45,139 nt of DNA, from IMG/VR virus record IMGVR_UViG_2713897161_000005; one strand, 5' to 3'. Position numbers and translations under genes: made by a program. Positions 1,009-17,994 of the stretch are shown in pieces (the first letter of the stretch is position 1; each line of letters starts with the position of its first letter). Source of the stretch: a virus. Taxonomy: Duplodnaviria > Heunggongvirae > Uroviricota > Caudoviricetes. The notes under the pieces were generated by a model. That model saw nothing but the letters and a program-made list of their open reading frames with translations. It made no database searches and had not been told where the DNA came from.

Positions 1009-1083
1009 GTCCTCTTAGTTAAATGGATATAACGAGCCCCTCCTAAGGGCTAATTGCAGGTTCGATTCCTGCAGGGGACACCA
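1009..1083 (+). tRNA. argW: tRNA-Arg, anticodon CCU; prophage attachment-site tRNA
   Basis: 75-nt cloverleaf: acceptor GTCCTCT/AGGGGAC, anticodon loop CUCCUAA (anticodon CCU), T-arm GGTTCGATTCC, 3' ACCA. Integrase gene immediately downstream. Confidence 0.85.
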
Positions 1084-1244: not shown

Positions 1245-2402
1245 ATGCTCACCGTTAAGCAGATTGAAGCAGCAAAGCCGAAAGAAAAACCATACCGCCT
1301 TCTCGATGGTAATGGCCTGTACCTTTATGTCCCTGTGTCAGGGAAAAAGGTATGGCAGCTTCGCTACAAGATTGACGGTAAGGAGAAAATCCTTACTGTC
1401 GGAAAATATCCGCTTATGACTTTACAGGAGGCAAGGGATAAAGCATGGACCGCGAGGAAAGACATCTCGGTTGGCATCGATCCGGTAAAAGCGAAAAAGG
1501 CTTCGTCTAACAACAATTCCTTTAGTGCGATTTACAAGGAATGGTACGAGCACAAGAAGCAAGTCTGGTCAGTAGGCTATGCAACTGAACTTGCAAAAAT
1601 GTTTGATGACGACATTTTACCTATCATCGGCGGCCTTGAGATTCAGGATATTGAGCCGATGCAACTGCTGGAAGTAATCCGCAGATTTGAAGATCGCGGT
1701 GCAATGGAGCGAGCCAACAAAGCACGCAGAAGATGCGGCGAGGTTTTCCGTTACGCTATTGTCACTGGTAGGGCTAAATATAACCCGGCACCTGACCTTG
1801 CTGACGCCATGAAGGGATACCGCAAGAAGAACTTCCCGTTTCTTCCTGCAGACCAGATCCCGGCATTCAACAAAGCACTGGCAACATTTTCAGGAAGTAT
1901 CGTATCGCTCATTGCGACCAAAGTTTTACGCTACACAGCCCTAAGAACGAAAGAGCTTCGTTCCATGCTATGGAAGAACGTCGATTTTGAAAACAGGATT
2001 ATCACCATCGACGCCAGTGTGATGAAGGGACGCAAAATTCATGTGGTCCCGATGTCAGACCAGGTGGTTGAACTTCTCACTACGCTAAGCTCCATCACCA
2101 AACCAGTATCAGAGTTTGTTTTTGCCGGACGCAACGATAAGAAGAAGCCAATCTGCGAGAACGCGGTGCTACTTGTGATCAAACAAATCGGCTATGAGGG
2201 TCTGGAAAGCGGTCACGGATTCAGGCATGAATTCAGCACGATTATGAACGAGCACGAATGGCCTGCTGACGCTATTGAAGTGCAACTGGCACATGCCAAT
2301 GGCGGATCTGTGCGCGGGATTTACAACCATGCTCAGTATCTCGATAAGCGCAGAGAAATGATGCAGTGGTGGGCGGACTGGCTTGATGAAAAGGTGGAGT
2401 GA
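1245..2402 (+). CDS. intS: Tyrosine integrase (P4-like, CPS-53 IntS type)
   Basis: 385 aa from ATG 1245 (MLTVKQIEAAKPKEK...); the ORF track's upstream GTG at 1209 is probably not the true start. C-terminal tyrosine-recombinase-type region; adjacent to tRNA. Confidence 0.85.
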   Translation: MLTVKQIEAAKPKEKPYRLLDGNGLYLYVPVSGKKVWQLRYKIDGKEKILTVGKYPLMTLQEARDKAWTARKDISVGIDPVKAKKASSNNNSFSAIYKEWYEHKKQVWSVGYATELAKMFDDDILPIIGGLEIQDIEPMQLLEVIRRFEDRGAMERANKARRRCGEVFRYAIVTGRAKYNPAPDLADAMKGYRKKNFPFLPADQIPAFNKALATFSGSIVSLIATKVLRYTALRTKELRSMLWKNVDFENRIITIDASVMKGRKIHVVPMSDQVVELLTTLSSITKPVSEFVFAGRNDKKKPICENAVLLVIKQIGYEGLESGHGFRHEFSTIMNEHEWPADAIEVQLAHANGGSVRGIYNHAQYLDKRREMMQWWADWLDEKVE

Positions 2403-2498
2403 TCCACCTTAAACACTATCGAAGAGCACAAAACCTTGCAATCAAGTGCAAAGCCTTGTGTGTCTCAGTTTTGTCCTGTGTGCCAGATATTGAATGGC

Positions 2499-2858
2499 CT
2501 ACGCCTCCGGCAGTTCAGGCCAGATGACATCCGGCGCGGTGCTGGTATCTGTTGCCGTCACCGCTTTGATGTAGCCAATCCAGGCAATAAGGCTTGCCTT
2601 GTCTTCATCGCTGATAATGCCTAACCGAAGTTCCGTTTGCCACAGGCTGATTTTTGAATTTGCGGCGTTCAGCAGATTTGTTTTCTGTTGCTCGGCTGCG
2701 GACACGTTCGCCGCGTGCTGTTCATCGCTATCGGTAGCCCACTTTGCGCCATCCCATTTGTCATATGGCGTTGATGGTGCTGTGGTGGTTGTTCCTTCCG
2801 GGTATTCTCCCAACTGTGATACGGTCACAGGCTTGCCACTGTCCGTGCTGTAAACCGT
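2499..2858 (-). CDS. Tail fiber assembly protein, C-terminal fragment (5' end lost in N-run)
   Basis: Visible C-terminal ~120 aa (…LWQTELRLGIISDEDKASLIAWIGYIKAVTATDTSTAPDVIWPELPEA) is Tfa-like. The ORF runs into the N-run at 2859. Confidence 0.55.
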   Translation of the reverse strand, partial: TVYSTDSGKPVTVSQLGEYPEGTTTTAPSTPYDKWDGAKWATDSDEQHAANVSAAEQQKTNLLNAANSKISLWQTELRLGIISDEDKASLIAWIGYIKAVTATDTSTAPDVIWPELPEA

Positions 2859-3606
2859 NNNNNNNNNNNNNNNNNNNNNNNNNNNNNNNNNNNNNNNNNN
2901 NNNNNNNNNNNNNNNNNNNNNNNNNNNNNNNNNNNNNNNNNNNNNNNNNNNNNNNNNNNNNNNNNNNNNNNNNNNNNNNNNNNNNNNNNNNNNNNNNNNN
3001 NNNNNNNNNNNNNNNNNNNNNNNNNNNNNNNNNNNNNNNNNNNNNNNNNNNNNNNNNNNNNNNNNNNNNNNNNNNNNNNNNNNNNNNNNNNNNNNNNNNN
3101 NNNNNNNNNNNNNNNNNNNNNNNNNNNNNNNNNNNNNNNNNNNNNNNNNNNNNNNNNNNNNNNNNNNNNNNNNNNNNNNNNNNNNNNNNNNNNNNNNNNN
3201 NNNNNNNNNNNNNNNNNNNNNNNNNNNNNNNNNNNNNNNNNNNNNNNNNNNNNNNNNNNNNNNNNNNNNNNNNNNNNNNNNNNNNNNNNNNNNNNNNNNN
3301 NNNNNNNNNNNNNNNNNNNNNNNNNNNNNNNNNNNNNNNNNNNNNNNNNNNNNNNNNNNNNNNNNNNNNNNNNNNNNNNNNNNNNNNNNNNNNNNNNNNN
3401 NNNNNNNNNNNNNNNNNNNNNNNNNNNNNNNNNNNNNNNNNNNNNNNNNNNNNNNNNNNNNNNNNNNNNNNNNNNNNNNNNNNNNNNNNNNNNNNNNNNN
3501 NNNNNNNNNNNNNNNNNNNNNNNNNNNNNNNNNNNNNNNNNNNNNNNNNNNNNNNNNNNNNNNNNNNNNNNNNNNNNNNNNNNNNNNNNNNNNNNNNNNN
3601 NNNNNN
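2859..3606. other. N-run (748 nt, unresolved or masked sequence)
   Basis: Continuous n characters; ORFs crossing it are artefacts. Confidence 0.99.
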
Positions 3607-3660
3607 TCCAGCTTCCGTGGCAAATCCGTTTTCGTCTAAAGTGATTTCTTTCGTTTCCAT
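3607..3660 (-). CDS. 5' end of an ORF starting at the tail fiber stop codon (METKEITLDENGFATEAG...), truncated by the N-run
   Basis: ATG overlaps the tail fiber TAA (TAATG). Frame differs from the Tfa C-terminal fragment if the N length is literal, so it may be a separate gene. Confidence 0.3.
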
Positions 3661-4532
3661 TATGCCGCCCTTACAATGTAGTTAAATGCGATGTTGCGCG
3701 GTCGGTTTTCGTTCGCGGTTCTTGCAACTAACGAAGAATCGATACCTATTGTCTTATAATATATGTATGAAGATGATTCCGTTGCACTTGCGTAATATGT
3801 GATTCCCGCCTCTCCAGTAATTGTTATGGCACCACTGCCGGATGCTGATGCCCCCATAGAGTTATCTGTAACAGTACCACTTATTTTTTGCATCGCGTCA
3901 CTTTGCTGTGAAAGTAACGCCCGCCCTGAATCCACATTGCGCCCATCATCCCACCCACGAATGAATTCGCCGCGTAAATCAGGCAATTTATTTGTCGGAT
4001 AAACCTTTGCCAGTTCCGGGTATTCTTCAGCAGAAAAAGCCGCACCGTTGCATTTCAGCCAGCCAGTAGGCGGTGTGGCTGAAGGCCACGGAACAGGCAC
4101 ACCAACGGGTAATGCCGAACCTTCTCCCAAACCAAGGTATGAAAGAATATCTTTCCACCCGGTACCATTACTGTTTGGATCAGATAGATTTCCTTCTGTT
4201 GTGTTAATGAATATTCTTTCCCCATCGTTCGAGATGAGCATCGCCCCTGACGGATATCCAGAAATCTCCGAAGCAAATTCAGAATCAAAAGTATTCAGCG
4301 CCCCGGTGCTCGACCATCTACCCAGAGCAGAAAGTTCGTATAAAATTTGGTTCATATCCTGGCCTTTTGGTGGCAAACCGCCAGCAGATTTCAGGATCAT
4401 TGTTATTGGAGGAAACCCCTGTTCATACGATGCTGAGTTATCTCCTGCAGGGGTGGTTGGCAATATTGCCACTCTCTGTCCATTAACTCCAAATGGCTTA
4501 GGTTGTTTTTTAGGTGAGTCAGAACGATTCAT
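3660..4532 (-). CDS. Tail fiber protein (phage tail collar domain)
   Basis: 290 aa; contains the collar-type motif LPDLRGEFIRGWDDGR; last gene of the baseplate/fiber block. Confidence 0.7.
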   Translation of the reverse strand: MNRSDSPKKQPKPFGVNGQRVAILPTTPAGDNSASYEQGFPPITMILKSAGGLPPKGQDMNQILYELSALGRWSSTGALNTFDSEFASEISGYPSGAMLISNDGERIFINTTEGNLSDPNSNGTGWKDILSYLGLGEGSALPVGVPVPWPSATPPTGWLKCNGAAFSAEEYPELAKVYPTNKLPDLRGEFIRGWDDGRNVDSGRALLSQQSDAMQKISGTVTDNSMGASASGSGAITITGEAGITYYASATESSSYIYYKTIGIDSSLVARTANENRPRNIAFNYIVRAA

Positions 4533-5185: not shown

Positions 5186-6415
5186 TCACGATAAAGTTAC
5201 GGTAATATCTGATTCCTGAATTGTCGGAACCTGGTCGATACCCATTGTTATTGCTGGCCCATAGGCTGATCCATCAATGGAGACTTCAAGTGATAAAATC
5301 CCAACGGTGTCAGGTGATATTGAAATAATCGGAGCGTAATACTTACCGGCGTTAATGGTAGAGCCTATCCTTGCCTTCCCGATCCCATCATAACCACCAT
5401 TGAAAACTGATACGATCATGCTTTTCACTTGTGATGTGATATCACTAGGTGGATTAAGAGATCTATCCAGCTCAACGCTAAAATAAACCCTCGTCGGAGT
5501 TGCTTTTTGCCACTGCATTACATAGGAAGGGTATGGAGGCAGATAGTTAACATTGTCGTAAACCGTGTACGAGGTATCTCCGTTCAGATTTGCTCCAGGG
5601 TTGTACGTCTGGAAAATTGACTCCGCTACATCCTCATCAGTTCCACCATACACACAGATGTAAATAGAGTGCGCCACCACAGGGAAGTTAGTAGCTCCCT
5701 GATTTACTGTGGCTGCAGTTCTGTTTGACCATACATAGGCATCCAGCACACCATTCGTAGCCAGCAAGGCAGATAGTGTCGATGCGTCCTGATTGCGGCT
5801 ATTTCTCGCGACCGACTGCTTGCGACGTGTTTCAAATGCAATACGTGATTCAACATCAACGCCAACAACGCCTGGGCTCGCGTTTGTGATCGCATCCCAT
5901 CCAGATACTGCACGGTAAATCTGATTTAATGCACCTGCTGCACAGGGTATTGGTCCGGTTGTGTTATTTACAAACTGAACATCAATGCTTCCTGATGCTG
6001 GTATTGTTGCGATGTCGATAGACCGGTAAATATATCCATTGGTATCAATGGCTGTGCTTCCCGCGGGGATTGTCGTTCCGACCTGACCAATGCATGTTGC
6101 TGTAACAACTGTCCCCTGAGCAGCGATCCGTTCCATAAAGTAAATCCGGCCAATCCCGTCCTGGAATCTGCCACTTGAAAAGTCAGGGTTAATTTGATTA
6201 AACAAACAAAGAAGTTTGTCGTATTCCTGAGCAATAATTTCAGTGTCAGACTGTGCGATCTGCCCTTGCGGTGAACTCAGTGATTGACTTGCACCACCAC
6301 CAAGAGCCGTTGACATGTCTGTAAGTCTTCCCGCCAGCACATCCGCTATGTCGGGAACTGAAAGACCGTTTTCAGTGATGGTTACATCAGGAACAGCCGT
6401 ATTTAATATCGTCAT
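5186..6415 (-). CDS. Baseplate J-like protein (Mu gp47-like)
   Basis: 409 aa ORF in the conserved baseplate position; overlaps the upstream gene by 4 nt. Confidence 0.55.
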   Translation of the reverse strand: MTILNTAVPDVTITENGLSVPDIADVLAGRLTDMSTALGGGASQSLSSPQGQIAQSDTEIIAQEYDKLLCLFNQINPDFSSGRFQDGIGRIYFMERIAAQGTVVTATCIGQVGTTIPAGSTAIDTNGYIYRSIDIATIPASGSIDVQFVNNTTGPIPCAAGALNQIYRAVSGWDAITNASPGVVGVDVESRIAFETRRKQSVARNSRNQDASTLSALLATNGVLDAYVWSNRTAATVNQGATNFPVVAHSIYICVYGGTDEDVAESIFQTYNPGANLNGDTSYTVYDNVNYLPPYPSYVMQWQKATPTRVYFSVELDRSLNPPSDITSQVKSMIVSVFNGGYDGIGKARIGSTINAGKYYAPIISISPDTVGILSLEVSIDGSAYGPAITMGIDQVPTIQESDITVTLS

Positions 6416-6771
6416 AAGGTGGCCTGTGCAATATTACCATTGATATCTGTAACGCGGATTGTGCCGCGAGTTGTGCGTGTATTCTTGTCAAAGAAAACTG
6501 ATGCCAGAGCATCCTCAACGACGGGTAATTTGAGTGCTTCAGCCTGCATTTTCTGAGCAATAAAACCAGGAGATGGTCGCCTGCCAAGAACTTCTGCCTT
6601 CCATGGGATCCCAAGTGTATTGTCGTAATAACACTCTCCTGAAAACACCAGGCATGCACTGGCGACATCCTGAGCAACAGAATATGATTCTTCTGCGATC
6701 GCCAGATTGCCATTTCCGTCAAGCGTCAAGTCCCACGTAGAAGTGTCCAGTTGCATAGTTCTGTATGTCAT
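6412..6771 (-). CDS. Baseplate wedge protein (Mu gp46/W-like)
   Basis: 119 aa, translationally coupled within the baseplate block. Confidence 0.45.
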   Translation of the reverse strand: MTYRTMQLDTSTWDLTLDGNGNLAIAEESYSVAQDVASACLVFSGECYYDNTLGIPWKAEVLGRRPSPGFIAQKMQAEALKLPVVEDALASVFFDKNTRTTRGTIRVTDINGNIAQATL

Positions 6772-7460
6772 GTCGGTTTATCCGTTGCATTGGAATTTAT
6801 TGTTGACCCACCACTTTGTACTCCTGAAACAGAATGTTTGTGATTGTTATAGTTGTCCCTTAAATTTTTAACAGTAGATGACTGTGAACTTGCGTTATCC
6901 TGAATATCACCGCTAACTTTAAGTAAAGGAGTATTCATGTTGACTCCATCAGGAGCATCAATATTTAACGATGAACATTTAATATTTAGTGGGTTAGGCG
7001 TGGTTATGTTTATTGCACCATCAGCAAATTCAATGAATTGAGTAGGCGCAATGTTTAATACCCCACCAAGATAAATTGCATCAGATTTGCTGTGTCGTCT
7101 TTTGCTTCCAGGTACTGATTCTTTACGATTTTTTCTTACCAGTGATGTGTCTTTGTCACATATCGCAATCAGACCAATATCACCCGCCACAGGGTCCATA
7201 ATTACAGCGCTGTTTCCTCTCTGTAACCGCCATACAGGAATATCATATAAAACCGAGTTGGAAATCATTTTTCCTGTACGGTCTGTTCTGGTAAGCAAAG
7301 GAAGAGCATCAACAACTAAATCTGGTGCCTCACCCCTGACTTCCTGAACTTTTGCTAACTCAATGAAGAAATATCCAGACATCAGCATCTCAAAAATATA
7401 TTCCTGAGATTGAGACTCACTTACCTGAGCAGGCGTTGGAGTAAATAGTTGCTTATCCAT
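6768..7460 (-). CDS. Baseplate assembly/spike protein (gpV-like)
   Basis: Start placed at the internal ATG at 7460 (MDKQLFTP...), which overlaps the upstream gene's stop; the 7553 start in the ORF track overlaps too far. Confidence 0.45.
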   Translation of the reverse strand: MDKQLFTPTPAQVSESQSQEYIFEMLMSGYFFIELAKVQEVRGEAPDLVVDALPLLTRTDRTGKMISNSVLYDIPVWRLQRGNSAVIMDPVAGDIGLIAICDKDTSLVRKNRKESVPGSKRRHSKSDAIYLGGVLNIAPTQFIEFADGAINITTPNPLNIKCSSLNIDAPDGVNMNTPLLKVSGDIQDNASSQSSTVKNLRDNYNNHKHSVSGVQSGGSTINSNATDKPT

Positions 7461-8409
7461 TATTCTGTTGCGCCTCTGCTCTTTGTTCCGCTGTTCTGGC
7501 GGCAATACATATTGAGTGCCATGAACCATTTGGCATCCATGATGATAATTCATGCCGAACGGAGGTTAACTTATACCTTCCGCTTGCATGTGGTAGTTCT
7601 GTTTTGATATCCACATATCTTCCAATGCAAAGGAGAGATGAATATTGCGTCTGAAACATCAGTCCCCCATTTGAAAATACAGGATATCCAACAAGTCCGT
7701 ATTCTCTGGATATAAACGGAATTACATCGTCTCTGTTTTTTTCTGAAGGCCAGAACTCTACTTTTGTCGGTGGCGTAGCTGACATCGCCAGTCCATAATC
7801 TGAACAGACCCTATAAAGTTGCTCAAAAACACTTCCTTCAAAATGCGGACTTCCTGATGTTGTCATCCCTTTTACATTATTAAACACAGCTTCATAACCT
7901 GCACTTGCACAAATGGATGAGATGACATCTTCAACACTTTGCGCCCCCTGCGCTGTAAACGGGCTTGCTGGCATGTTCTGTAAATCAACATTAGAAGAGG
8001 CTGTTATCATCAGACTGCTTTCAGGAGCAGAATTCATGTTTGCTATTGATGAAAGCATCGTGCCGGAGAAAACAAGAGAATCATCAGCAAATACCTCAAC
8101 ATTTAACTTCTGACCTTCCCCAACAATACCATCAGCCTTCCCTGATATATCAGCAAGTCTTTCGATTCCTAACCCGTAAAGAGATATATCAGCCTGAGCA
8201 CCTCCGCGACCGGTAACAAAGTTCAGGGATACTGTTGACTTAACATTTCTGATGGAGATTTTATTGTTTCCATTTTTATCAAATGCTGATGATTCATTCG
8301 TGAAGTCAAACCGAAGACTGTGATTTTTATACAAGCTCGTTTTCCTCGATGTAATACAGCAAGTAACGGCTACCCAAGCCTTCCCATCGCGGGTCCGATT
8401 CTCCATCAT
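7453..8409 (-). CDS. Baseplate hub/tail protein (putative)
   Basis: Long ORF 7453-8442 (track start is TTG); ATG candidates at 8409/8406. Still overlaps the upstream ORF by ~80 nt, so the start is uncertain. Confidence 0.4.
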   Translation of the reverse strand: MMENRTRDGKAWVAVTCCITSRKTSLYKNHSLRFDFTNESSAFDKNGNNKISIRNVKSTVSLNFVTGRGGAQADISLYGLGIERLADISGKADGIVGEGQKLNVEVFADDSLVFSGTMLSSIANMNSAPESSLMITASSNVDLQNMPASPFTAQGAQSVEDVISSICASAGYEAVFNNVKGMTTSGSPHFEGSVFEQLYRVCSDYGLAMSATPPTKVEFWPSEKNRDDVIPFISREYGLVGYPVFSNGGLMFQTQYSSLLCIGRYVDIKTELPHASGRYKLTSVRHELSSWMPNGSWHSICIAARTAEQRAEAQQNNG

Positions 8410-8629
8410 TATCAATGAAAATAAGGTCTCCCTTAAATCCAAGGTAGGAATATCTTACCATCTTATTACCATGCAGACATGGAACGCCCTGCATAATTGG
8501 GACTTCATTAACAGTTAAATCCATGTACATAAAACTCTGTCGCTGAACAAGTTTTATATTACATTGCTGACCAGCCAGACTTACCGAAATGGACTGAGAT
8601 TTGCTGGGAAGAACAGATACTGTAATCAT
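8327..8629 (-). CDS. Phage tail protein (100 aa)
   Basis: ORF in the tail block, coupled to its neighbours. Confidence 0.4.
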   Translation of the reverse strand: MITVSVLPSKSQSISVSLAGQQCNIKLVQRQSFMYMDLTVNEVPIMQGVPCLHGNKMVRYSYLGFKGDLIFIDNDGESDPRWEGLGSRYLLYYIEENELV

Positions 8630-9491: not shown

Positions 9492-9710
9492 CTAGTTATC
9501 AAAAAGTCCGTACGTTTCTTCTTCAGGAGTAAGGGGAAGAATCTCAATTCTATCTATAGATACCTTTTCAATGTACCCATGAGGTCTACTTAAAATTAAA
9601 GCTCTCTCATGCCACAGAACTCCAAGAATGTGATACCTTCCAGCATCGCCTTTTACCCTGGCTCTTCCTTTGATTCTTGGCGGCATAATGCCATATTTTT
9701 TCTTTGCCAT
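9492..9710 (-). CDS. Hypothetical protein (72 aa, basic N-terminus)
   Basis: ORF MAKKKYGIMPPRIKGRARVKG...; last gene of the island operon before the terminator. Confidence 0.4.
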   Translation of the reverse strand: MAKKKYGIMPPRIKGRARVKGDAGRYHILGVLWHERALILSRPHGYIEKVSIDRIEILPLTPEEETYGLFDN

Positions 9711-10438
9711 TATGCAACATTACTCCCATGAACCAGGTGTTGTAGTGCTTTAACGCCTTCAGAATTGTAGCGGAATGCTTCCACCTGTTTGCTGGAATGC
9801 GCAGATTTATCCAGGAAGAACTTCCCGTACTGCTCAGTTTTGAGGTTGTTTGCGTTAGCAATGCGACCAATCTTGTTTGCCGTTACTCCAAGCTGCTCTG
9901 CGACCTCCCCTGCTGAGTAGTAATGCTCTTCTATTGCCGGAAGAGGTATTGCATTAAAACCAACGAGCGGGTTGATTATACTTGCTGCCGCTGTCTGCTT
10001 TGCCTCCGGCGCAAGATTTGGCATCAGATCGAACAGATTGGTAACAGCTTCAACCGTCATTTTCAATGTTCGCGCTTGACGATACTCAACAAGTCCACTC
10101 GACGATTTACCGCTTTTAATGTGCGCTTCTTGCATCCTTTCAAGTTGGTCTACAAGTGAGCGGCGAACAGCTTTAGATTCACGAGCAGCCACTCGAAGGG
10201 CTTGCTTAATTGACATAACAACTTTTTCAGAAGTTGTCTTGTTTGATTTTTGAACTACGAAAATTTCGTAGTGCTCACCTTCAAGTTCATCCTTAATGCG
10301 TGCAATAAAGTCGTTATTTCGAACTTCTTTTTCCCCGCACTGTCTACGAGCATGATTGACCATCTCTAACAGGTACTGGCTATCAATGGTTTTATCCGTG
10401 ACAACGGATCCGATGTTTGCTACATTCTTAAAAGTCAT
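9710..10438 (-). CDS. Antirepressor-like / phage regulatory protein (KilA-C-type C-terminal region, putative)
   Basis: Start at ATG 10438 (MTFKNVANIGS...) preceded by AAGGAA; C-terminal segment YSAGEVAEQLGVTANKIGRIANANNL resembles antirepressor DNA-binding regions (from memory). Confidence 0.45.
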   Translation of the reverse strand: MTFKNVANIGSVVTDKTIDSQYLLEMVNHARRQCGEKEVRNNDFIARIKDELEGEHYEIFVVQKSNKTTSEKVVMSIKQALRVAARESKAVRRSLVDQLERMQEAHIKSGKSSSGLVEYRQARTLKMTVEAVTNLFDLMPNLAPEAKQTAAASIINPLVGFNAIPLPAIEEHYYSAGEVAEQLGVTANKIGRIANANNLKTEQYGKFFLDKSAHSSKQVEAFRYNSEGVKALQHLVHGSNVA

Positions 10439-10475
10439 TAGGCATTCCTTATGTGGTAGTAAGGGTGTGACATAG

Positions 10476-10504
10476 GCCGCCAGCAGCACACTGGCGGTTT
10501 TTTT
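10476..10504 (+). terminator. GC-rich hairpin plus T7 tract, part of a three-segment alternative-pairing element
   Basis: GCCGCCAG(10476-83)/CTGGCGGT(10491-98) then TTTTTTT (10498-10504); a third copy ACCGCCAG at 10506-13 can pair alternatively. Lies between the two antirepressor-like genes. Confidence 0.4.
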
Positions 10505-10521
10505 CACCGCCAGATGCGTCA

Positions 10522-11445
10522 TTAATACAGATGAACAGAAGGCGGCAATTCTTTATTCTTAAGCCTTATCCATGCGGAAAGATTTGTTGGTCCGTCTGGC
10601 TCATTGATATCAACATCTCGTGTGTGGTTGATTAAAACGTCTCTCGCCGTTCCGATAACATACGAGAACTCATGACCGTAGTCGTAGCATCTGCCGGAAT
10701 AGTTCGATTGAATTTGTTTTAGCGCCGGATACAGTTCGCGGAATAATGCCTGTGAGCGGTTGGCATAATCCCATAGCCATACAAGGCTGTTTGCTTCTTT
10801 TGCAGAAAGCTCGTTGACTTTCCTCTCTTGTTTGCCGATGAACTCTCCTTCAAGCGGAACGCGAGCAGCAAGTGACAGTGCTTCGGTAAACTGCTCCTCA
10901 CTGATTTCTTTGTACGAACATCCAAAATGGGATTTCAGTGACGACCACATGGTGATCATCGCCTTAGCCTGTTTTTCTTTTGGCAGAGACTGACCGCGAC
11001 TCATGACGAGTTGTTTAATGGCTTCCTGCTGTTCAGTGGTAATTTTACCCGGCAACGCCTTTTTAGCTTTGCGTGGATTAACCACATGGCCTTTAGTCCA
11101 GTATTCGTAGAGCACATCGTCACACTCTTCCTGATACTGGATTACCTTGTCGCGGATTTCAGGGCGGACTTTGTTTGGTTGAATACTTGAAAGCCAAGCC
11201 GCAAATTTACGAAAGGCAAGACATGTCATTAACTGTTTACCGCCAGCAGAAGGTATTTCGATTTCCGAAATACCTTTGGCAAACCTTTGTTTTAACTTAA
11301 CAAATTGAGCAGCCCAAACCAGCCCCATGCCTTCAACAACAGGCCTCATAGGAACATAAGGCTCATTGTTAATTCCAACCAAAAACAGATTTGTTCCGTG
11401 GAATGGTACATTGATAGTAGATACCGCTGTTGCTATACTTTTCAT
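10522..11445 (-). CDS. Antirepressor (Ant-like), 307 aa
   Basis: Large ORF directly downstream of an Arc-like gene, as ant follows arc in P22 immI; N-terminal region looks antirepressor-like (from memory). Confidence 0.55.
   Translation of the reverse strand: MKSIATAVSTINVPFHGTNLFLVGINNEPYVPMRPVVEGMGLVWAAQFVKLKQRFAKGISEIEIPSAGGKQLMTCLAFRKFAAWLSSIQPNKVRPEIRDKVIQYQEECDDVLYEYWTKGHVVNPRKAKKALPGKITTEQQEAIKQLVMSRGQSLPKEKQAKAMITMWSSLKSHFGCSYKEISEEQFTEALSLAARVPLEGEFIGKQERKVNELSAKEANSLVWLWDYANRSQALFRELYPALKQIQSNYSGRCYDYGHEFSYVIGTARDVLINHTRDVDINEPDGPTNLSAWIRLKNKELPPSVHLY
11411..11439 (+). promoter_or_regulatory. Near-consensus sigma70 promoter antisense to ant (Psar-like)
   Basis: TTGATA (11411-16), 17-bp spacer, TATACT (11434-39); lies inside the first codons of ant on the opposite strand. 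Confidence 0.5.
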
Positions 11446-11518
11446 GTCAATATTTCCCGATCAGATTTGTTGATATAGAAGCCTCGCCAGTTCCCGCTGT
11501 CGGGGCTTCGTTATTTTT
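11446..11518 (+). ncRNA. Candidate sar-like antisense RNA (~70 nt) covering the ant RBS and arc-ant spacer
   Basis: Predicted start ~11446 from the promoter above; ends at a hairpin (11478-11509, GAAGCCUCG/CGGGGCUUC) followed by GUUAUUUUU. Same layout as P22 sar. Confidence 0.45.
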
Positions 11519-11678
11519 AGAGAGCATTCCGCATTTTCTCCCGGTACTTCAACCACCAAGCAAGTCCCTGAACCAACACTGAGTTTTCTGACATCCCCTC
11601 TTCCTTGGCGATGCGTTTCACCTCCTCCTTAAAACGGTACGGATACCGAAGAGTTGTCTTCACTTCATTCTTTTCCAT
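11517..11678 (-). CDS. arc: Arc-like ribbon-helix-helix repressor (53 aa)
   Basis: Uncalled small ORF with AAGGAG 7 nt upstream of ATG: MEKNEVKTTLRYPYRFKEEVKRIAKEEGMSENSVLVQGL...; matches the Arc pattern LRWPREV...ENGRSVNSEI. Confidence 0.55.
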   Translation of the reverse strand: MEKNEVKTTLRYPYRFKEEVKRIAKEEGMSENSVLVQGLAWWLKYREKMRNAL

Positions 11679-11700
11679 TGATCACTCCTTTTTACGTAAT

Positions 11701-11761
11701 GGCATTATGCCTTGAAAGCAATATGCCATCATTGAATATAAATAGCAATATGCCATCATTG
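11701..11761. promoter_or_regulatory. Divergent promoter/operator region between arc and mnt
   Basis: Two perfect 17-bp direct repeats GCAATATGCCATCATTG (11718-34, 11745-61); palindrome GGCATtATGCC (11701-11); TTGAAA(11712-17)...TATAAA candidate promoter toward mnt. Confidence 0.45.
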
Positions 11762-11780
11762 TTTTTTTTGAGGTGATGTT

Positions 11781-12101
11781 ATGGCTGAAAAACAGGTTAA
11801 AGATTACGAAAAGTTTGTTGTGCGTTTCCCTGACGGGATGAGGGACGCGATTGCGGAGAGAGCCAAACGAAACGGGCGCTCTATGAACTCAGAGATTGTG
11901 CAGATACTGGAAGATGCCTTGAATGCAGAAAATACTCTTGGGGAAATAGCAGACAAAATCAACAGCGTCTCGGTTCCGCTAAATGTTGATGCGCTAGTTC
12001 AACTTCAAGCCCAAGTGATCGCCATGCAAAAAGAAATACAGGAAAAATTCAGAGAGCAGAACGAAAAGTTGAGAGAACTGCTAAACAAAAAACCCACCTG
12101 A
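11781..12101 (+). CDS. mnt: Mnt-like ribbon-helix-helix repressor (106 aa)
   Basis: N-terminus FVVRFPDGMRDAIAERAKRNGRSMNSEIVQILEDAL matches the Mnt/Arc RHH pattern; GAGGTGA RBS; divergent from arc. Confidence 0.6.
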   Translation: MAEKQVKDYEKFVVRFPDGMRDAIAERAKRNGRSMNSEIVQILEDALNAENTLGEIADKINSVSVPLNVDALVQLQAQVIAMQKEIQEKFREQNEKLRELLNKKPT

Positions 12102-12112
12102 CGGTGGGTTTT
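12089..12112. terminator. Bidirectional intrinsic terminator between convergent mnt and the lipoprotein gene
   Basis: 10-bp stem AAAACCCACC/GGTGGGTTTT with 4-nt loop; T-rich on both strands; overlaps the mnt stop codon. Confidence 0.55.
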
Positions 12113-12135
12113 CATTACATATCAATTAATACCTA

Positions 12136-12798
12136 TTATCTTCTGATCGCTTTACGCCAATCCCCGGATAATCTAGATATATCCCAACACGACTGAACAA
12201 CTTCAGTAAAATACTCTCTATCCATTGGCGCGATTCCTGGCCAATCTTTCATTCGATTTACTAACGCATCTTTTGGTATGCCCTTCTTTTGATTCAAGGA
12301 GGTTTGTTCGCAAATCGCCCTTACCGCAGCATCATATTCAGCCTGAGCATAATGATTCACACTAAGAAGCACAGTGTATGCTGTTGAAAGTGAATTCATG
12401 GAAGATGAGAGTTCTTTCTTCCTCCGACACTCTTTATCAGCAAGGCATTTCTCTTCAGCTAGTTTTTTTTCCGCTCTCTTCTTGTTATTGAAGGCGTTAA
12501 TCCCAGAATCATAAGCGTTAGCCCATACATTGTAATAACACTCTCCATCCCAGCCGCATTGCGTGGTATCTGGAGCGACAAGAATCATCCCTGTTTTTTT
12601 TAGATAATCATTTTTAAGCCTATTAACAGTCCATGACTCTCCGCTTTTTGCTACATACTCTTTATCACCGAATTCGCTTTGCTGTTGCTGAGTGGTTGGT
12701 GGGGTTATCGAACACCCGTACAATAAAGAAGCAGAAAGAATCAAGAGAAAGTGTGATTTTATTTTTCTTACACATTCACCACGATTAATTAATGCCAT
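12136..12798 (-). CDS. Putative lipoprotein / secreted Cys-rich protein (220 aa), accessory gene
   Basis: Signal-peptide-like N-terminus with lipobox-like LLYGC; AGGAG RBS; AT-rich by eye; sits beside mnt where P22 carries sieA. Confidence 0.5.
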   Translation of the reverse strand: MALINRGECVRKIKSHFLLILSASLLYGCSITPPTTQQQQSEFGDKEYVAKSGESWTVNRLKNDYLKKTGMILVAPDTTQCGWDGECYYNVWANAYDSGINAFNNKKRAEKKLAEEKCLADKECRRKKELSSSMNSLSTAYTVLLSVNHYAQAEYDAAVRAICEQTSLNQKKGIPKDALVNRMKDWPGIAPMDREYFTEVVQSCWDISRLSGDWRKAIRR

Positions 12799-13624: not shown

Positions 13625-15439
13625 CTAAGGCATTGCACTAGAAAATGCCGCGTTTGTTGACACCCGGCTAACTTGCTGATTGACACTTCTGGTAAGAGCA
13701 TCAACTGTTGTCGGGTTACTGTTAACAACAACCGTGCCAATAGTTGTACTGCTGCTACGACTGTTGTCAATTTTTGATGTTGTCTGGCTTGGTGTTGAAG
13801 CGATGCGTTGCTGCTGCTGATAGTAAGCCAGCGTCTCGTTTTCTTTTGCATTAAGAGCGGCGCGAATCTTTGGCACATATTCTCGCGTCTCTTTCGGTAA
13901 GGTGTTCCAGTATTTGGATGATGGTGAATCAAACCCGGTACTGGATATGTATTTTAACTTTTTGTCTACATTGCCCATCCCCCAGTTGTAAGCCATCAGC
14001 GCATGGTTAACATTGCCTTTATAGTGCTTTAGCAAATCCCTCATGAACCTTTCAGCAGCAGCGCGAGATTTTACCTCATCAAGACGCTCATCAATCCCAT
14101 CACCGACCTTTAACCCGTACGCTATGGCAGTATCCTTCATGAACTGATACGGACCAACAGCACCTTTCGGGCTGTAAAGTTTTTTACCACCACTCGATTC
14201 CACCTCACGAATGGCATCAAGAAGAGAATCCATGCTTACAGGCTTTACTCCGTCAGGGAGAGGGATATCTGGCTGAATGTTATTGCCATAAATCTCATCT
14301 CCCCTACGCCCAAAATCGGTGTCAAACCCCATGCTGCGCATGGTATCTCCAAGTTCACGCTTAGAGTAATCAAACGATCCTTTAGCTGCACCCTCAATGT
14401 TTTCCCTGTCATTGTAGAGGTACAAACCATATGCTATTAACCCAGCCAACCATGGAGGAAGGGCACCGCCTGTAAGTTTGCTTCCTACATATGCTGCTGC
14501 CAATAGCTTCAGAGCCTCTTCCGCGCCACCAACTGCCTTTGTGAATTGCTTCGTCATATTCCCGGCGTCATTGAAAAAGCCAATGATGTCGCCATGATGT
14601 TTCTCAATCCAGGAACCAAAAGCCTTCATCCCGTCAATAACGTCTGGAGCGAATGCCATGGCTAAATTTTGCTTTAATCGGGAAAACTCTGAATCAAGTT
14701 GACCAAGAGTGGCGGCAACCTTCTCCTGCTCTTTTACCTGCTGTGCGCTAATACGGGATTTCTTTGTTTCTGAATCGACAAGCTGCTTAAGTTCCCCTGA
14801 TTTTATTTTAGCGGCATCTGTCGGATCGAACCCTGCGGCCGCCATCACCTGCATCAGGTTTTCTTGAGAATGAGTCTTGCCATAGCGAGAAAACTCAGCA
14901 AGAGCCTTGTTTGGGTCACCGAGCTTATTGATATCTAATCCGGTACGAGCGCCAAGAACCAGCAAATTTTGGGCAGCGCCAGTAAGCCCCCCCATAACAG
15001 TTGGATCGGCAATATTTGCCAAAGCCATTCTGGCATTCCCAGAAGATGAAATGAACGAGTCACCGTTAAGACCAGCCTGGCGAAATCCCCGCTGAACACC
15101 AAACATCTTATTAACATCAGAACCGAAAAACTTGGCCTGTTGACTGGCTCTCACGATTTCGTTGGCAGTAGATGTAAAAAGTTGCTTGATTCCATACAAC
15201 CCGGCGCCAATTCCCAAAAATCCAGCGGCTGCGGTTGTCACGTTGCGGAAAGCTGAAACAGCGGTTTTACCGAACCTCTCCGTTTCCTGCCGCTGTTTTT
15301 CAAGTTCCTTTAGCCTTTCCTTCTCAGCCCTGGAAAGATCTTTGTTTAATTTACTAACTTCATCTTTTACTTTCCGTTTTCCATTCAGGAATTCATCGGC
15401 CTTAATTGTGACCTTGTAGGCCAACTCATTGATAATCAT
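13625..15439 (-). CDS. Tail tape measure protein with lytic transglycosylase-like region
   Basis: 604 aa, N-terminal coiled-coil-like region; C-proximal EVESSGGKK...GPYQFMKDTA...AYNWGMG resembles SLT catalytic motifs (ES...AYNxG). Confidence 0.7.
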   Translation of the reverse strand: MIINELAYKVTIKADEFLNGKRKVKDEVSKLNKDLSRAEKERLKELEKQRQETERFGKTAVSAFRNVTTAAAGFLGIGAGLYGIKQLFTSTANEIVRASQQAKFFGSDVNKMFGVQRGFRQAGLNGDSFISSSGNARMALANIADPTVMGGLTGAAQNLLVLGARTGLDINKLGDPNKALAEFSRYGKTHSQENLMQVMAAAGFDPTDAAKIKSGELKQLVDSETKKSRISAQQVKEQEKVAATLGQLDSEFSRLKQNLAMAFAPDVIDGMKAFGSWIEKHHGDIIGFFNDAGNMTKQFTKAVGGAEEALKLLAAAYVGSKLTGGALPPWLAGLIAYGLYLYNDRENIEGAAKGSFDYSKRELGDTMRSMGFDTDFGRRGDEIYGNNIQPDIPLPDGVKPVSMDSLLDAIREVESSGGKKLYSPKGAVGPYQFMKDTAIAYGLKVGDGIDERLDEVKSRAAAERFMRDLLKHYKGNVNHALMAYNWGMGNVDKKLKYISSTGFDSPSSKYWNTLPKETREYVPKIRAALNAKENETLAYYQQQQRIASTPSQTTSKIDNSRSSSTTIGTVVVNSNPTTVDALTRSVNQQVSRVSTNAAFSSAMP

Positions 15440-16503: not shown

Positions 16504-17994
16504 TTATAAAATCGCGGTTGAGGACATTGTGATGGACTGAATAAGTTGCCCATCGACATAATAGAAAATGACACCTTTCAGGTCGCGCTCAATGCGTGCA
16601 GAGCCTGACTGTGTCGGGATGTACAGGAACCAGCCCTGTGAATACAGCGTCGATGAGATATCTTTTCCAACTGTGTTATTCACAATTCTGGTTTGCGCAT
16701 TATCAAGTTTCACGCCACGCTGAATAGCCCCGAAATTGAGAGCCTGTTCAGCAACATCAATAACAGCAGCAGAAACTGCGCCGTATCCTGTCTCATTGAA
16801 CGGGTAAGACTGGTTATTGGTGAACAGGTTAGCAAAAGCACTAACCAGATTGGCATTAATCCATACCTGATTAATAAAACTGTCCAGCCATACAAACTTG
16901 CCAGTAATGGCACCATCAGATGCGTACTGCGCCATTGTTTTGTTCAGGCTGTATGAGCCGTAGAAGTTGTAACCGTTTGATTTCAGTGCCTGAGCGGTCG
17001 CCAGATCGCTTACGTTGGGTGCTAACCCTGAAAATCCACGGAACTTGAACGAGATACGCCCATTGGTGCGTGCAAAATCCACGGATGCAGCATATGCCAG
17101 TGCTGTAACGCTATACAGGTATGTTCCGTACACCGGAAAAATGTTCTCGTAGCCATTTGCCACAACCACTTTCTGCACAAAGCAATTTGCATTATTGGCT
17201 ACCGTTCCTGCTGAAGTGGTATCGTGAACAACATATCCAAACCGGTTTTTACTGCTGCTTGCCCATGCGCACAATTCTGTTTTCTGGTCATCGGTCAGTT
17301 CGACCAGCGAGTTAAACAGGATCCAGTTCTGGTTGACGTTGATGATGTTGTTCATCGTGTCTGTCAGCGTTACCGCATCATAACCCGGTGATACAATCGC
17401 TGCGGAATCCTGCGTAAGTAACAACCCGGTAGCCAGAGCGCCAGCAGAGGCATAAGACACTTCACTCTCTGCGCCAGTAGTGGCAGAGCGAATGATGAAT
17501 CGGTTAGCTATTGGCAACCATTCAACCACCACCTTGCTTGCACCAATTCCAACCTGCAACTTGGACGCAATGTCGCTAAAACTTGTGGCTGTGGACAAAT
17601 CAATTGATGTGCTGGTAGTCGACTCACCGTCAATGGAAAGGGTGATTGTTCCTGCTGGAATCGCTTTCAGTGTTGCCAGGGTAACACCTTTCAGGTTGCC
17701 GGACAGAAGATACCCAGCCACTGGTGAAGTAACAATACGATACATCAGCAGTTCACCAGGAATAACGGATGAGTTTTCGTATCCGTTAAAATACTGTTGT
17801 GCTGCGAGGAATTCTTTCGATTCACTCCCCATCAAAGCTGATACATCAGATGAGGAGTAATAAGATTGTACCGCGCCAACCGGGATAAGCTCGTTATCGG
17901 TCAACATCAGGCCGTTAGCATCAACCGCAGAACCGGCAGGCGTAACGACATTGGGCGTGATATTAAAATCTACAGATAAAGGGATTGTGCTCAT
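16504..17994 (-). CDS. Tail sheath protein (putative)
   Basis: 496-aa ORF; size and position typical of contractile tail sheath. Confidence 0.6.
   Translation of the reverse strand: MSTIPLSVDFNITPNVVTPAGSAVDANGLMLTDNELIPVGAVQSYYSSSDVSALMGSESKEFLAAQQYFNGYENSSVIPGELLMYRIVTSPVAGYLLSGNLKGVTLATLKAIPAGTITLSIDGESTTSTSIDLSTATSFSDIASKLQVGIGASKVVVEWLPIANRFIIRSATTGAESEVSYASAGALATGLLLTQDSAAIVSPGYDAVTLTDTMNNIINVNQNWILFNSLVELTDDQKTELCAWASSSKNRFGYVVHDTTSAGTVANNANCFVQKVVVANGYENIFPVYGTYLYSVTALAYAASVDFARTNGRISFKFRGFSGLAPNVSDLATAQALKSNGYNFYGSYSLNKTMAQYASDGAITGKFVWLDSFINQVWINANLVSAFANLFTNNQSYPFNETGYGAVSAAVIDVAEQALNFGAIQRGVKLDNAQTRIVNNTVGKDISSTLYSQGWFLYIPTQSGSARIERDLKGVIFYYVDGQLIQSITMSSTAIL

What the first reader, a model, noticed from the sequence alone, without database searches (positions are those of the whole stretch)
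11411..11518. Candidate sar-like antisense small RNA opposite the ant translation start
A near-consensus promoter (TTGATA-17-TATACT) lies inside the first codons of the antirepressor gene on the opposite strand. About 70 nt downstream is a hairpin plus U-tract ending at the arc stop codon. This reproduces the layout of the P22 sar antisense RNA that represses ant translation.
Basis: partly seen in the sequence, partly recalled or inferred. Interest (0 to 1): 0.65.

Follow-up and report, generated by a model that had tools for sequence, protein, structure and literature searches.

The report
Sar-like antisense RNA controlling antirepressor
This is a diverged copy of the classic phage P22 'sar' gene, a ~73-nt antisense RNA made opposite the ribosome-binding site of a prophage antirepressor gene so that antirepressor cannot be translated; the mechanism is already understood, and the only new points are its host (a contractile-tailed prophage) and that the public RNA-family model misses it.

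Summary
TTGATA-17-TATACT, with an extended -10 TG, lies at 11411-11439 (+) inside codons 3-12 of ant. It is the only site with >=10/12 matches plus TG in the whole window. The predicted start, G11446, abuts the ant start codon. The following 73 nt fold into two hairpins (z = -5.2). The second hairpin is a terminator whose U-tract overlaps the arc stop codon.

The layout matches the annotated P22 sar base for base: the same -10-to-start spacing and the same 2-nt overlap with arc. Rfam's sar model aligns full-length but scores below its threshold (32.2 vs 43 bits). A model built without window-type sequences finds this one site in 45 kb (69.8 bits, E 2e-12).

At least 15 sequence types from Salmonella, Escherichia, Klebsiella, Edwardsiella, Pectobacterium, Erwinia, Hafnia, Pluralibacter and Xenorhabdus keep both hairpins through compensatory changes. 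In the 12 types where both strands were folded, the structure is always stronger on the sar strand. Most types keep the TGnTAnnnT promoter, across unrelated coding contexts.

It is a new, diverged member of the sar family. It sits in a GF-2-like myovirus prophage, inside the tail-gene operon. Expression and repression are inferred, not shown.

The parts
11411..11416 (+). Psar -35 hexamer TTGATA (5/6 to consensus), the complement of ant codons 10-12
   Evidence: In relatives with the same Ant type it is TTGATA or TTGATT. It is weaker in P22 (GTGTTA) and in Ant type B (GTGAAA).
11431..11439 (+). Psar extended -10: TGC + TATACT, the complement of ant codons 3-5
   Evidence: The block TTGCTAnnnT, then 6 nt, then the +1 purine (G, or A in the Stx-phage type) is kept in four different N-terminal coding contexts. 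In other genera the block was part of the search pattern that retrieved them, so its presence there is not independent. The residue encoded opposite the hexamer varies (Ile/Leu/Val) while -12T, -11A and -7T stay fixed.
11446..11518 (+). Predicted sar-like antisense RNA, about 71-73 nt. The +1 G lies 7 nt after the -10 and directly abuts the complement of the ant start codon.
   Evidence: The start is inferred from the P22 annotation, which has the same spacing. It has not been mapped experimentally.
11446..11474 (+). Stem-loop I: 7-bp stem GUCAAUA/UGUUGAU. Its loop carries UUUCCC (11453-11458), which is complementary to the ant Shine-Dalgarno sequence GGGAAA.
   Evidence: Stem positions 1, 4, 5 and 7 show AU/GC/UA alternatives across 15 sequence types.
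11478..11509 (+). Stem-loop II: terminator hairpin GAAGCCUCG-C-CAGU/UCCC/GCUG-U-CGGGGCUUC, with 9 + 4 bp and one C.U mismatch
   Evidence: Across 21 sequences 96.9% of cells are paired, and 6 pairs show changes on both sides.
11510..11518 (+). Terminator tail GUUAUUUUU. Its last two U overlap the arc stop codon.
10522..11445 (-). ant, the antirepressor gene (307 aa) and the target of the antisense RNA. Start codon at 11445-11443.
   Evidence: 56% identity to P22 Ant, E 4e-119; P22_AR_N 1e-39, P22_AR_C 5e-29.
11517..11678 (-). arc-like gene (53 aa, probable ribbon-helix-helix repressor), the first gene of the arc-ant operon
   Evidence: 38% identity over 29 aa to P22 Arc; Pfam Arc 17.5 bits, below the 20.4 cutoff. 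Same size and position as P22 arc. Assignment inferred.
11781..12101 (+). mnt-like divergent repressor gene (106 aa, Arc domain)
   Evidence: 47% identity to the P22 Mnt N-terminus; Pfam Arc 1.6e-19.
11699..11761 (.). Control region between arc and mnt. It holds two 18-nt direct repeats AGCAATATGCCATCATTG (11717-11734, 11744-11761) and the palindrome ATGGCATTATGCC. These are probable operators, and Pant/Pmnt should lie here.
   Evidence: No promoter reached the scan threshold here. Their role is inferred.

Best explanation
The element is a diverged homologue of the phage P22 sar gene.

Proposed mechanism:
1. An extended -10 sigma-70 promoter is embedded, on the opposite strand, in the first codons of ant.
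2. It starts transcription at G11446, right next to the ant start codon.
3. Transcription stops about 73 nt later at an intrinsic terminator that overlaps the arc stop codon.
4. The RNA has two hairpins. Loop I exposes UUUCCC, the complement of the ant Shine-Dalgarno sequence.
5. The RNA is perfectly complementary to the arc-ant intercistronic leader. Pairing with any ant mRNA occludes the ribosome-binding site and blocks Ant synthesis.

Why the cassette needs it: the cassette lies co-directionally inside the tail-gene (late) operon. Read-through transcripts that Arc and Mnt cannot repress at Pant would otherwise yield antirepressor. The antisense RNA is the brake that travels with the cassette.

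Shown here: the sequence features, homology to P22 sar, conserved structure with covariation, the strand bias of that structure, and promoter conservation. Inferred from P22 genetics and biochemistry: that the RNA is made, that it pairs with ant mRNA, and that it represses translation.
For: - Anatomy is identical to the P22 record. The promoter sits in the first ant codons, the +1 lies 7 nt after the -10 and abuts the ATG, and the 3' end overlaps the arc stop by 2 nt.
- The fold has two hairpins with z = -5.2, the same architecture as P22 sar, whose z is -5.3.
- The Rfam sar model matches full-length on the right strand, E 1.2e-4 in the 501-nt search.
- Covariance model R1, built from 13 relatives without the window type, gives one hit in 45 kb at 11446-11519 (+), 69.8 bits, E 1.8e-12. 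The reverse strand of the hairpin scores only 15 bits.
- Terminator stem: 96.9% of cells are paired, against <=49% when partners are slid, and 6 pairs change on both sides.
- Stem I keeps 5-8 bp starting at +1 in 15 sequence types, with AU/GC/UA alternatives.
- In all 12 types tested, the sar strand folds 3.6-15 kcal/mol better than its complement, with 2-6 G.U pairs against 0-2.
- The -10 block is kept in four unrelated coding contexts, including a Rha-type gene.
- It is the best promoter match in the window.
- Ant, Arc-like and Mnt-like genes flank it.
- The cassette is co-oriented with surrounding long operons in three settings: this myovirus, the tail cluster of Stx phage 2851 and the nin region of E. 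coli RM10410.
- The P22 mechanism is as summarised in PMC12197685, PMC7968456 and PMC12111858.
Against: - There are no expression data for this locus.
- The Rfam score (32.2) is below the curated threshold (43), and the gathering-threshold scan of the window did not report it.
- The terminator stem has an internal C.U mismatch.
- The Arc homologue is only weakly supported (17.5 bits, below the 20.4 cutoff).
- The promoter lies in coding sequence, so part of its conservation reflects conservation of the Ant N-terminus.
- The compared sequences are related, so shuffle-based covariation statistics overstate independence.
- In the genome-scan sequences the -10, CAT, AAGCC and GGCTT positions were fixed by the search pattern. 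They cannot count as conservation there.
Confidence: 0.85

Rival explanations
1. There is no functional RNA. The promoter-like hexamers are a by-product of the codons of the Ant N-terminus, and the hairpin is only an intergenic structure or recombination 'boundary sequence' between arc and ant.
For: Promoter-like sites at >=9/12 are common, with 3.7 expected per 1.9 kb. The region is a mosaic junction: many different arc alleles join the same hairpin, and phage CUS-3 annotates a 'boundary sequence' here.
Against: The site is the only >=10/12 + TG match in 90 kb. The key -10 positions persist while the encoded residue changes (Ile/Leu/Val) and in unrelated N-termini, including a Rha-type gene. 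Compensatory changes occur in both stems. G.U pairs favour the plus strand, and a U-tract exists only on that strand. The homologous P22 element is an experimentally characterised RNA (PMC12197685).
Confidence: 0.05
2. The conserved structure acts on the minus strand, within the arc-ant mRNA. It could be a processing, stability or attenuation hairpin, or a structure that masks or exposes the ant ribosome-binding site. The antisense transcript would then be secondary.
For: The complement also folds (-16.7 kcal/mol here, -12.7 to -25.9 in relatives). The Stx-phage type hairpin is a near-perfect palindrome and also scores on the opposite strand (38.8 bits).
Against: In all 12 types tested the plus strand is the more stable, and its G.U pairs would become A.C mismatches on the mRNA strand. 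No U-tract follows the hairpin on the minus strand. The conserved promoter has no role in this model. The two roles are not mutually exclusive.
Confidence: 0.07
3. The plus-strand transcript encodes a small protein, for example the 50-aa ORF at 11430-11582, rather than acting as RNA.
For: Mechanical ORFs overlap the region on the + strand.
Against: The listed ORF starts upstream of the predicted +1 and runs past the terminator. Downstream of 11446 there is no ATG, and the TTG codons run straight into TAG. Variation among relatives follows base-pairing, not a codon pattern.
Confidence: 0.01

Closest known systems
sar RNA of Salmonella phage P22 (Rfam RF00262; Liao et al. 1987, Wu et al. 1987, Schaefer & McClure 1997, as cited in PMC2629481 and PMC12197685)
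   Same: It is cis-antisense to the arc-ant intercistronic region and the ant ribosome-binding site. The promoter lies in the first ant codons with an identical TTGCTATACT -10 block. The +1 abuts the ant ATG. There are two hairpins, the second being a GAAGCC...GGGGCUUC terminator that overlaps the arc stop. It sits in an mnt / arc-ant immI cassette embedded co-directionally in a late operon.
   Different: It is only 64% identical to P22 sar. Stem I and the inner terminator stem have different sequences. The -35 is better (TTGATA vs GTGTTA) and the U-tract longer (UUAUUUUU vs CAACUUU). The Rfam score is below threshold. The arc allele is very different (38% over 29 aa). The host phage is a GF-2/Edno5-like myovirus, not a P22-like podovirus.
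sar-like elements of Edwardsiella phage GF-2, Stx-converting phages (2851, YYZ-2008, 1717) and E. coli prophages (RM10410, KCJ3K291). None is annotated as an RNA in the records seen.
   Same: They share the same cassette and the same two-hairpin RNA. RM10410 and KCJ3K291 carry the window type at 98-99% identity. GF-2 has the same virion type and the same placement in the tail cluster.
   Different: GF-2 and the Stx phages carry other stem I and stem II sequence types. In GenBank their ant CDS is drawn through the sar region.
c4 RNA of phages P1/P7 and CA RNA of N15, which are antisense-type RNAs that block antirepressor synthesis (PMC12197685, PMC10732415)
   Same: The logic is the same: a small structured RNA pairs around the ribosome-binding site and prevents antirepressor translation. 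In P1/P7 the sequence of the RNA sets the immunity specificity.
   Different: From my own knowledge, c4 and CA are processed from the same-strand leader and pair through short loop sequences in trans. The present element is a separate convergent transcript, fully complementary to its target. No other Rfam family reached its gathering score in the window apart from the tRNA.
Plasmid copy-control countertranscripts (e.g. ctRNA_pGA1, RF00236)
   Same: These are short antisense RNAs with a 5' hairpin followed by a GC-rich terminator hairpin. There is a weak Rfam match of 23.4 bits.
   Different: The match is far below gathering (45 bits). It rests on the generic terminator shape. The genes and context are different.

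Membership tests
sar antisense RNA (P22 immI; Rfam RF00262) | Encoded on the strand opposite arc-ant, covering the intercistronic region and the ant ribosome-binding site, with the 5' end next to the ant start codon | tested here: met
   The predicted +1, G11446, abuts the start codon complement CAT at 11443-11445. The RNA spans 11446-11518, between ant and the arc stop. The coordinates have the same relationship as P22 sar 15021-15090 to ant 15091 and the arc end at 15022.
sar antisense RNA (P22 immI; Rfam RF00262) | Own promoter (Psar) inside the first codons of ant, convergent with Pant | tested here: met
   TTGATA-17-TATACT with TG. The -10 block is identical to P22 Psar. It is the only such site in the window. 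Promoter activity was not tested.
sar antisense RNA (P22 immI; Rfam RF00262) | RNA of about 68-73 nt with two stem-loops, the 3' one a Rho-independent terminator | tested here: met
   The fold gives -26.4 kcal/mol and z = -5.16, the same architecture as P22. Covariation supports it.
sar antisense RNA (P22 immI; Rfam RF00262) | Score at or above the Rfam gathering threshold (43 bits) | tested here: not met
   The score is 32.2 bits, E 1.2e-4, with full-length alignment 1-68/68, and the gathering scan did not report it. Only relatives with the P22-type terminator stem pass (68-86 bits). Six other types score 28-39 bits. This reflects a narrow seed rather than non-homology: the leave-one-out model R1 gives 69.8 bits, E 1.8e-12.
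sar antisense RNA (P22 immI; Rfam RF00262) | Flanked by homologues of ant, arc and mnt | tested here: met
   Ant is 56% identical and has both P22_AR domains. The Mnt-like gene matches the Arc domain at 1.6e-19. The Arc-like gene is weak (E 3e-5 pairwise; Pfam below cutoff).
sar antisense RNA (P22 immI; Rfam RF00262) | The transcript is made and represses ant translation by pairing with the mRNA | not testable with these tools
   This needs Northern, 5'-RACE or reporter assays. Complementarity is complete by construction.
c4/CA-type processed anti-antirepressor RNAs (P1, P7, N15) | RNA encoded on the same strand upstream of ant and processed from the leader, acting through short loop complementarities | tested here: not met
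   Here the promoter and terminator are on the strand opposite ant. No other Rfam family reached gathering in the window.

The most novel reading that the evidence does not exclude
The many sar sequence types may be specificity classes, in the way that c4 RNA sets P1/P7 heteroimmunity. At least 7 stem-I and at least 6 terminator-stem variants recombine freely next to Ant proteins that are 85-95% identical to the window's. A resident prophage's sar would silence, in trans, the ant of an incoming or co-resident cassette only if the two share the same type. Diversification and modular exchange of the two hairpins would then let cassettes escape each other. The window carries a rare combination: a stem I shared with Kapi1, Klebsiella and Erwinia elements, and its own terminator stem. 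Consistent with this idea, the co-resident cassettes in two Xenorhabdus contigs carry mutually divergent sar sequences (61-67% identity, longest shared run 7-10 nt).
Probability: 0.2. Interest if true: 0.5.

Novelty: new member of a known kind. Interest (0 to 1): 0.25.

Why it matters
For annotation, this is a functional non-coding gene that automatic pipelines miss. Rfam's threshold excludes it. In several public phage records the ant CDS is drawn straight through the homologous element.

For biology, it shows that the complete P22 immI circuit, including its antisense RNA, moves as one unit. It occurs in podovirus, siphovirus and myovirus prophages and even in the nin region, across at least nine genera of Enterobacterales. 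It is always co-oriented with a long operon. That pattern fits the idea that the RNA is what makes it safe to insert an antirepressor gene into a strongly transcribed region.

None of this changes what is known about how sar works.

Tried and rejected
- The Rfam gathering-threshold scan of the window returned only a tRNA. The sar match appeared only with the E-value threshold on the local region.
- I first took the prophage to be P22-like, because int, ant and tailspike-region hits pointed that way. PHROGs and a tail-sheath search showed instead a GF-2/Edno5-like myovirus.
- The MAFFT alignments (A2, A3) and the model-guided alignment A4 did not put stem I of the L021, L067, GF-2 and PhiR5_1 types in a common register. 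Formal pair counting was therefore done only for stem II. Stem I was tabulated from the individual minimum-energy folds, which is a weaker test.
- A4 also picked up six opposite-strand hits of the palindromic Stx-type hairpin and was not used for counting.
- The degenerate genome-wide pattern was too loose for 596 Gb. Only seven of the 80 returned loci proved to be sar-like when screened with model R1. The rest are chance matches.
- The scan found no sigma-70-like Pant or Pmnt in 11679-11780. By eye only weak candidates exist, such as TTGAAA-19-TATAAA for mnt, so those promoters remain unassigned.
- The original sar papers (Genes Dev 1987; RNA 1997) are not held in the library. Mechanistic statements rest on later open-access papers that cite them.
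- A plus-strand small ORF was considered and rejected, because there is no usable start codon after +1.

Full report
OBSERVATION

The region was read directly and ORFs were listed.
- ant is the 307-aa ORF at 10522-11445 on the minus strand.
- A 53-aa arc-sized ORF lies at 11517-11678 (-).
- A 106-aa ORF lies divergently at 11781-12101 (+).

On the plus strand the promoter scan reports exactly one site in 10400-12300: TTGATA (11411-11416), a 17-nt spacer, then TATACT (11434-11439). This is 10 of 12 matches, with a TG before the -10. That scan expects 3.7 sites at its loose threshold, so a hit on its own proves little. My own scan of the whole window on both strands found only two sites with >=10/12 matches, and this is the only one that also has the extended -10 TG.

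The 73 nt from G11446 to T11518 fold into two hairpins at -26.4 kcal/mol. The z-score is -5.16, and none of 200 dinucleotide shuffles folds as well. The second hairpin (11478-11509) is followed by GUUAUUUUU. The last two T of that tail are the complement of the AA in the arc TAA stop codon (11519-11517).

WHAT IT IS

The flanking genes are homologues of the P22 immunity I genes.
- Ant is 56% identical to P22 Ant over its full length (E 4e-119). It has the P22_AR_N and P22_AR_C domains.
- The divergent gene has an Arc/Mnt ribbon-helix-helix domain (1.6e-19) and is 47% identical to the Mnt N-terminus.
- The 53-aa ORF is only weakly Arc-like. It does have the size and position of arc.

The annotated P22 record places sar at 15021-15090, its promoter at 15097-15125 inside ant (which starts at 15091), and the end of arc at 15022. 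The window has the same geometry to the base: the -10 ends 6 nt before the +1 G, the +1 abuts the ant start codon, and the 3' end overlaps the arc stop by 2 nt.

In the pairwise alignment the block TTGCTATACTnTTCATGT is identical, and so are the outer arms of the terminator stem, GAAGCC...GGGGCTTC. Stem I and the inner terminator stem differ. P22 sar folds into the same two-hairpin shape.

MEMBERSHIP

Rfam's sar model (RF00262) aligns end to end (1-68 of 68) to 11447-11513 on the plus strand. It scores 32.2 bits, below the gathering score of 43 (E 1.2e-4 for the 501-nt search). At gathering threshold the window yields only a tRNA.

This shortfall is a property of the model. Relatives with the P22-type terminator stem score 68-86 bits. 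Six other types score 28-39 bits: Stx phage 2851, GF-2, Klebsiella phage ST101-KPC2phi6.1, PhiR5_1, and the L067/L081 and L021 types.

I therefore built a covariance model from 13 relatives, deliberately leaving out the window type. Searched against all 45 kb on both strands, it gives one significant hit: 11446-11519 (+), 69.8 bits, E 1.8e-12, full length. The reverse strand of the hairpin scores 15 bits.

COMPARATIVE EVIDENCE THAT THE RNA IS UNDER SELECTION

Loci were collected through the Ant protein, not through the RNA. These 80 viral contigs encode Ant proteins 85-95% identical to the window's. Their upstream regions nevertheless fall into many different sequence types. Annotated phages and E. 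coli genomes added more types. A genome-wide pattern scan, screened with the model, added elements from Pectobacterium, Erwinia, Pluralibacter, Hafnia and Xenorhabdus.

All 15 distinct types fold into the same architecture. Stem I has 5-8 bp and begins at +1. Its loop carries the anti-Shine-Dalgarno pyrimidines. A GAAGCC...GGCUUC terminator hairpin follows.
- Terminator stem: the formal count on 21 sequences gives 96.9% of cells paired, against at most 49% when the partners are slid by 1-3 columns. Six pairs change on both sides, and no shuffle reaches the observed covariation score.
- Stem I: positions 4 and 5 show AU, GC, UA and GU alternatives.
- Strand bias: in all 12 types where both strands were folded, the sar strand is 3.6-15 kcal/mol more stable than its complement. 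It contains 2-6 G.U pairs against 0-2. The structure is therefore selected on the antisense strand, not on the ant mRNA.
- Promoter: TTGCTAnnnT, then 6 nt, then the +1 purine (G, or A in the Stx-phage type) is kept in four different coding contexts. These are the window's Ant type, a second Ant N-terminus in Kapi1 and KCJ3K291, P22, and a Rha-type gene in PhiR5_1. The residue opposite the hexamer varies (Ile, Leu, Val) while -12T, -11A and -7T do not.

Caveats:
- The sequences are related, so shuffle statistics are generous.
- For the genome-scan sequences the pattern itself fixed the -10, CAT, AAGCC and GGCTT positions.
- Stem I could not be put in one register by MAFFT or by the model, so its pair table comes from individual folds.

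MECHANISM

By homology with P22, Psar produces a short RNA fully complementary to the ant leader. Pairing covers the ribosome-binding site and prevents Ant translation. [quoted passage not shown] Here the ant Shine-Dalgarno GGGAAA is the complement of 11453-11458, in loop I.

The context fits the 'brake on read-through' role. The cassette lies co-directionally inside the tail-gene operon of this prophage, between a lytic tail protein gene and baseplate genes. A 98%-identical cassette lies in the nin region of a lambdoid prophage. A sister type lies between tail genes of Stx phage 2851. In each case transcription from outside cannot be stopped by Arc or Mnt at Pant.

Shown here: the sequence anatomy, homology, conserved structure and promoter conservation. 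Inferred: transcription, pairing and repression.

RIVALS

- A chance promoter plus a mere junction hairpin is contradicted by the covariation, the strand bias, the one-sided U-tract and the promoter's persistence in unrelated coding contexts.
- A role of the hairpins within the arc-ant mRNA cannot be excluded as an additional function, but it explains neither the promoter nor the G.U bias.
- A small plus-strand protein is excluded by the lack of a start codon after +1.

COMPARISON AND NOVELTY

The element works like P22 sar and is a diverged member of that family. sar has been noted in other P22-like phages (PMC2629481, PMC12111858, PMC13397905).

What is new is modest.
- This sequence type is only 64% identical to P22 sar and falls below the Rfam threshold.
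- Its host is not a P22-like podovirus. It is a contractile-tailed prophage whose sheath is 73-75% identical to Edwardsiella phages Edno5 and GF-2, which carry the same cassette.
- The family is broader and more variable than the curated model suggests.

The most novel reading still open is that the sequence types act as specificity classes, as c4 RNA does for P1/P7. Co-resident cassettes in two Xenorhabdus contigs do carry divergent sar sequences. This is only suggestive.

VERDICT

The element is a new member of a known kind and of low-to-moderate interest. Its main value is for annotation and for describing the mobility of the immI cassette.

Noticed in passing
window 2499-30500 (- strand), e.g. 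16504-17994, 7453-8442, 5186-6415, 13625-15439: The prophage carrying the immI cassette is a myovirus, not a P22-like podovirus. PHROGs finds a tail sheath, baseplate hub, baseplate wedge and a lytic tail protein with a transglycosylase domain. The sheath is 73-75% identical to Edwardsiella phages Edno5 and GF-2. Megablast found almost no close phage relatives for 12-25 kb.
   Followed up: partly
window 11699-11761: The arc/mnt divergent control region holds two perfect 18-nt direct repeats, AGCAATATGCCATCATTG, 27 nt apart (11717-11734 and 11744-11761). It also holds the palindrome ATGGCATTATGCC. These are probably operators for the Arc-like and Mnt-like repressors. No consensus-grade Pant or Pmnt was found.
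   Followed up: partly
window 9710-10522 (-): A second anti-repressor gene (phrog_1726, E 2e-99) lies directly downstream of ant. The longest ORF starts at the ant stop codon, but the family match begins at residue 29. Pfam finds nothing. It may be co-regulated with ant.
   Followed up: no
window 12136-12798 (-): A 220-aa ORF has a lipoprotein-type signal (..LLYGC..) and matches only an unknown-function PHROG (phrog_26209). It sits where P22 has sieA, between the mnt-like gene and the tail genes.
   Followed up: no
window 1009-1080 and 1209-2402: A tRNA gene (63.4 bits, anticodon loop CUCCUAA) lies next to an integrase ORF. The segment is 96% identical to the attL/tRNA-Arg/integrase end of phage VT2phi_272. 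This is probably the prophage attachment site.
   Followed up: no
L083 (E. coli RM10410) 2127-3759; L084 (phage 2851) 643-1810; L082 (GF-2) 726-1752: The same cassette occurs in quite different genomic settings: the nin region of a lambdoid prophage (98% identical), between tail genes of Stx-converting phages, and the tail cluster of GF-2. In the 2851 and GF-2 records the ant CDS is annotated about 80 nt too long. It runs through the sar-like element and overlaps arc.
   Followed up: partly
L134 (Xenorhabdus beddingii) 2295-2369, 2921-3000, 3985-4060; L121 (X. bakwenae) 5594-5666, 6658-6737: Several sar-like elements lie in tandem. In L134 there are two complete arc / antirepressor / mnt cassettes plus a 49-aa ant remnant, each with its own sar-like element. 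The elements are mutually divergent (61-67% identity). Two of them have the TTGCTA promoter block about 30 nt further upstream.
   Followed up: partly
L042, L059, L079, L088 versus L021, L067, L081, L082, L084, L085, L086, L087: Rfam RF00262 reaches its gathering score only for elements with the P22-type terminator stem (68-86 bits). Six other sequence types score 28-39 bits, and the L068 type is not reported at all. The curated family is much narrower than the real one.
   Followed up: yes
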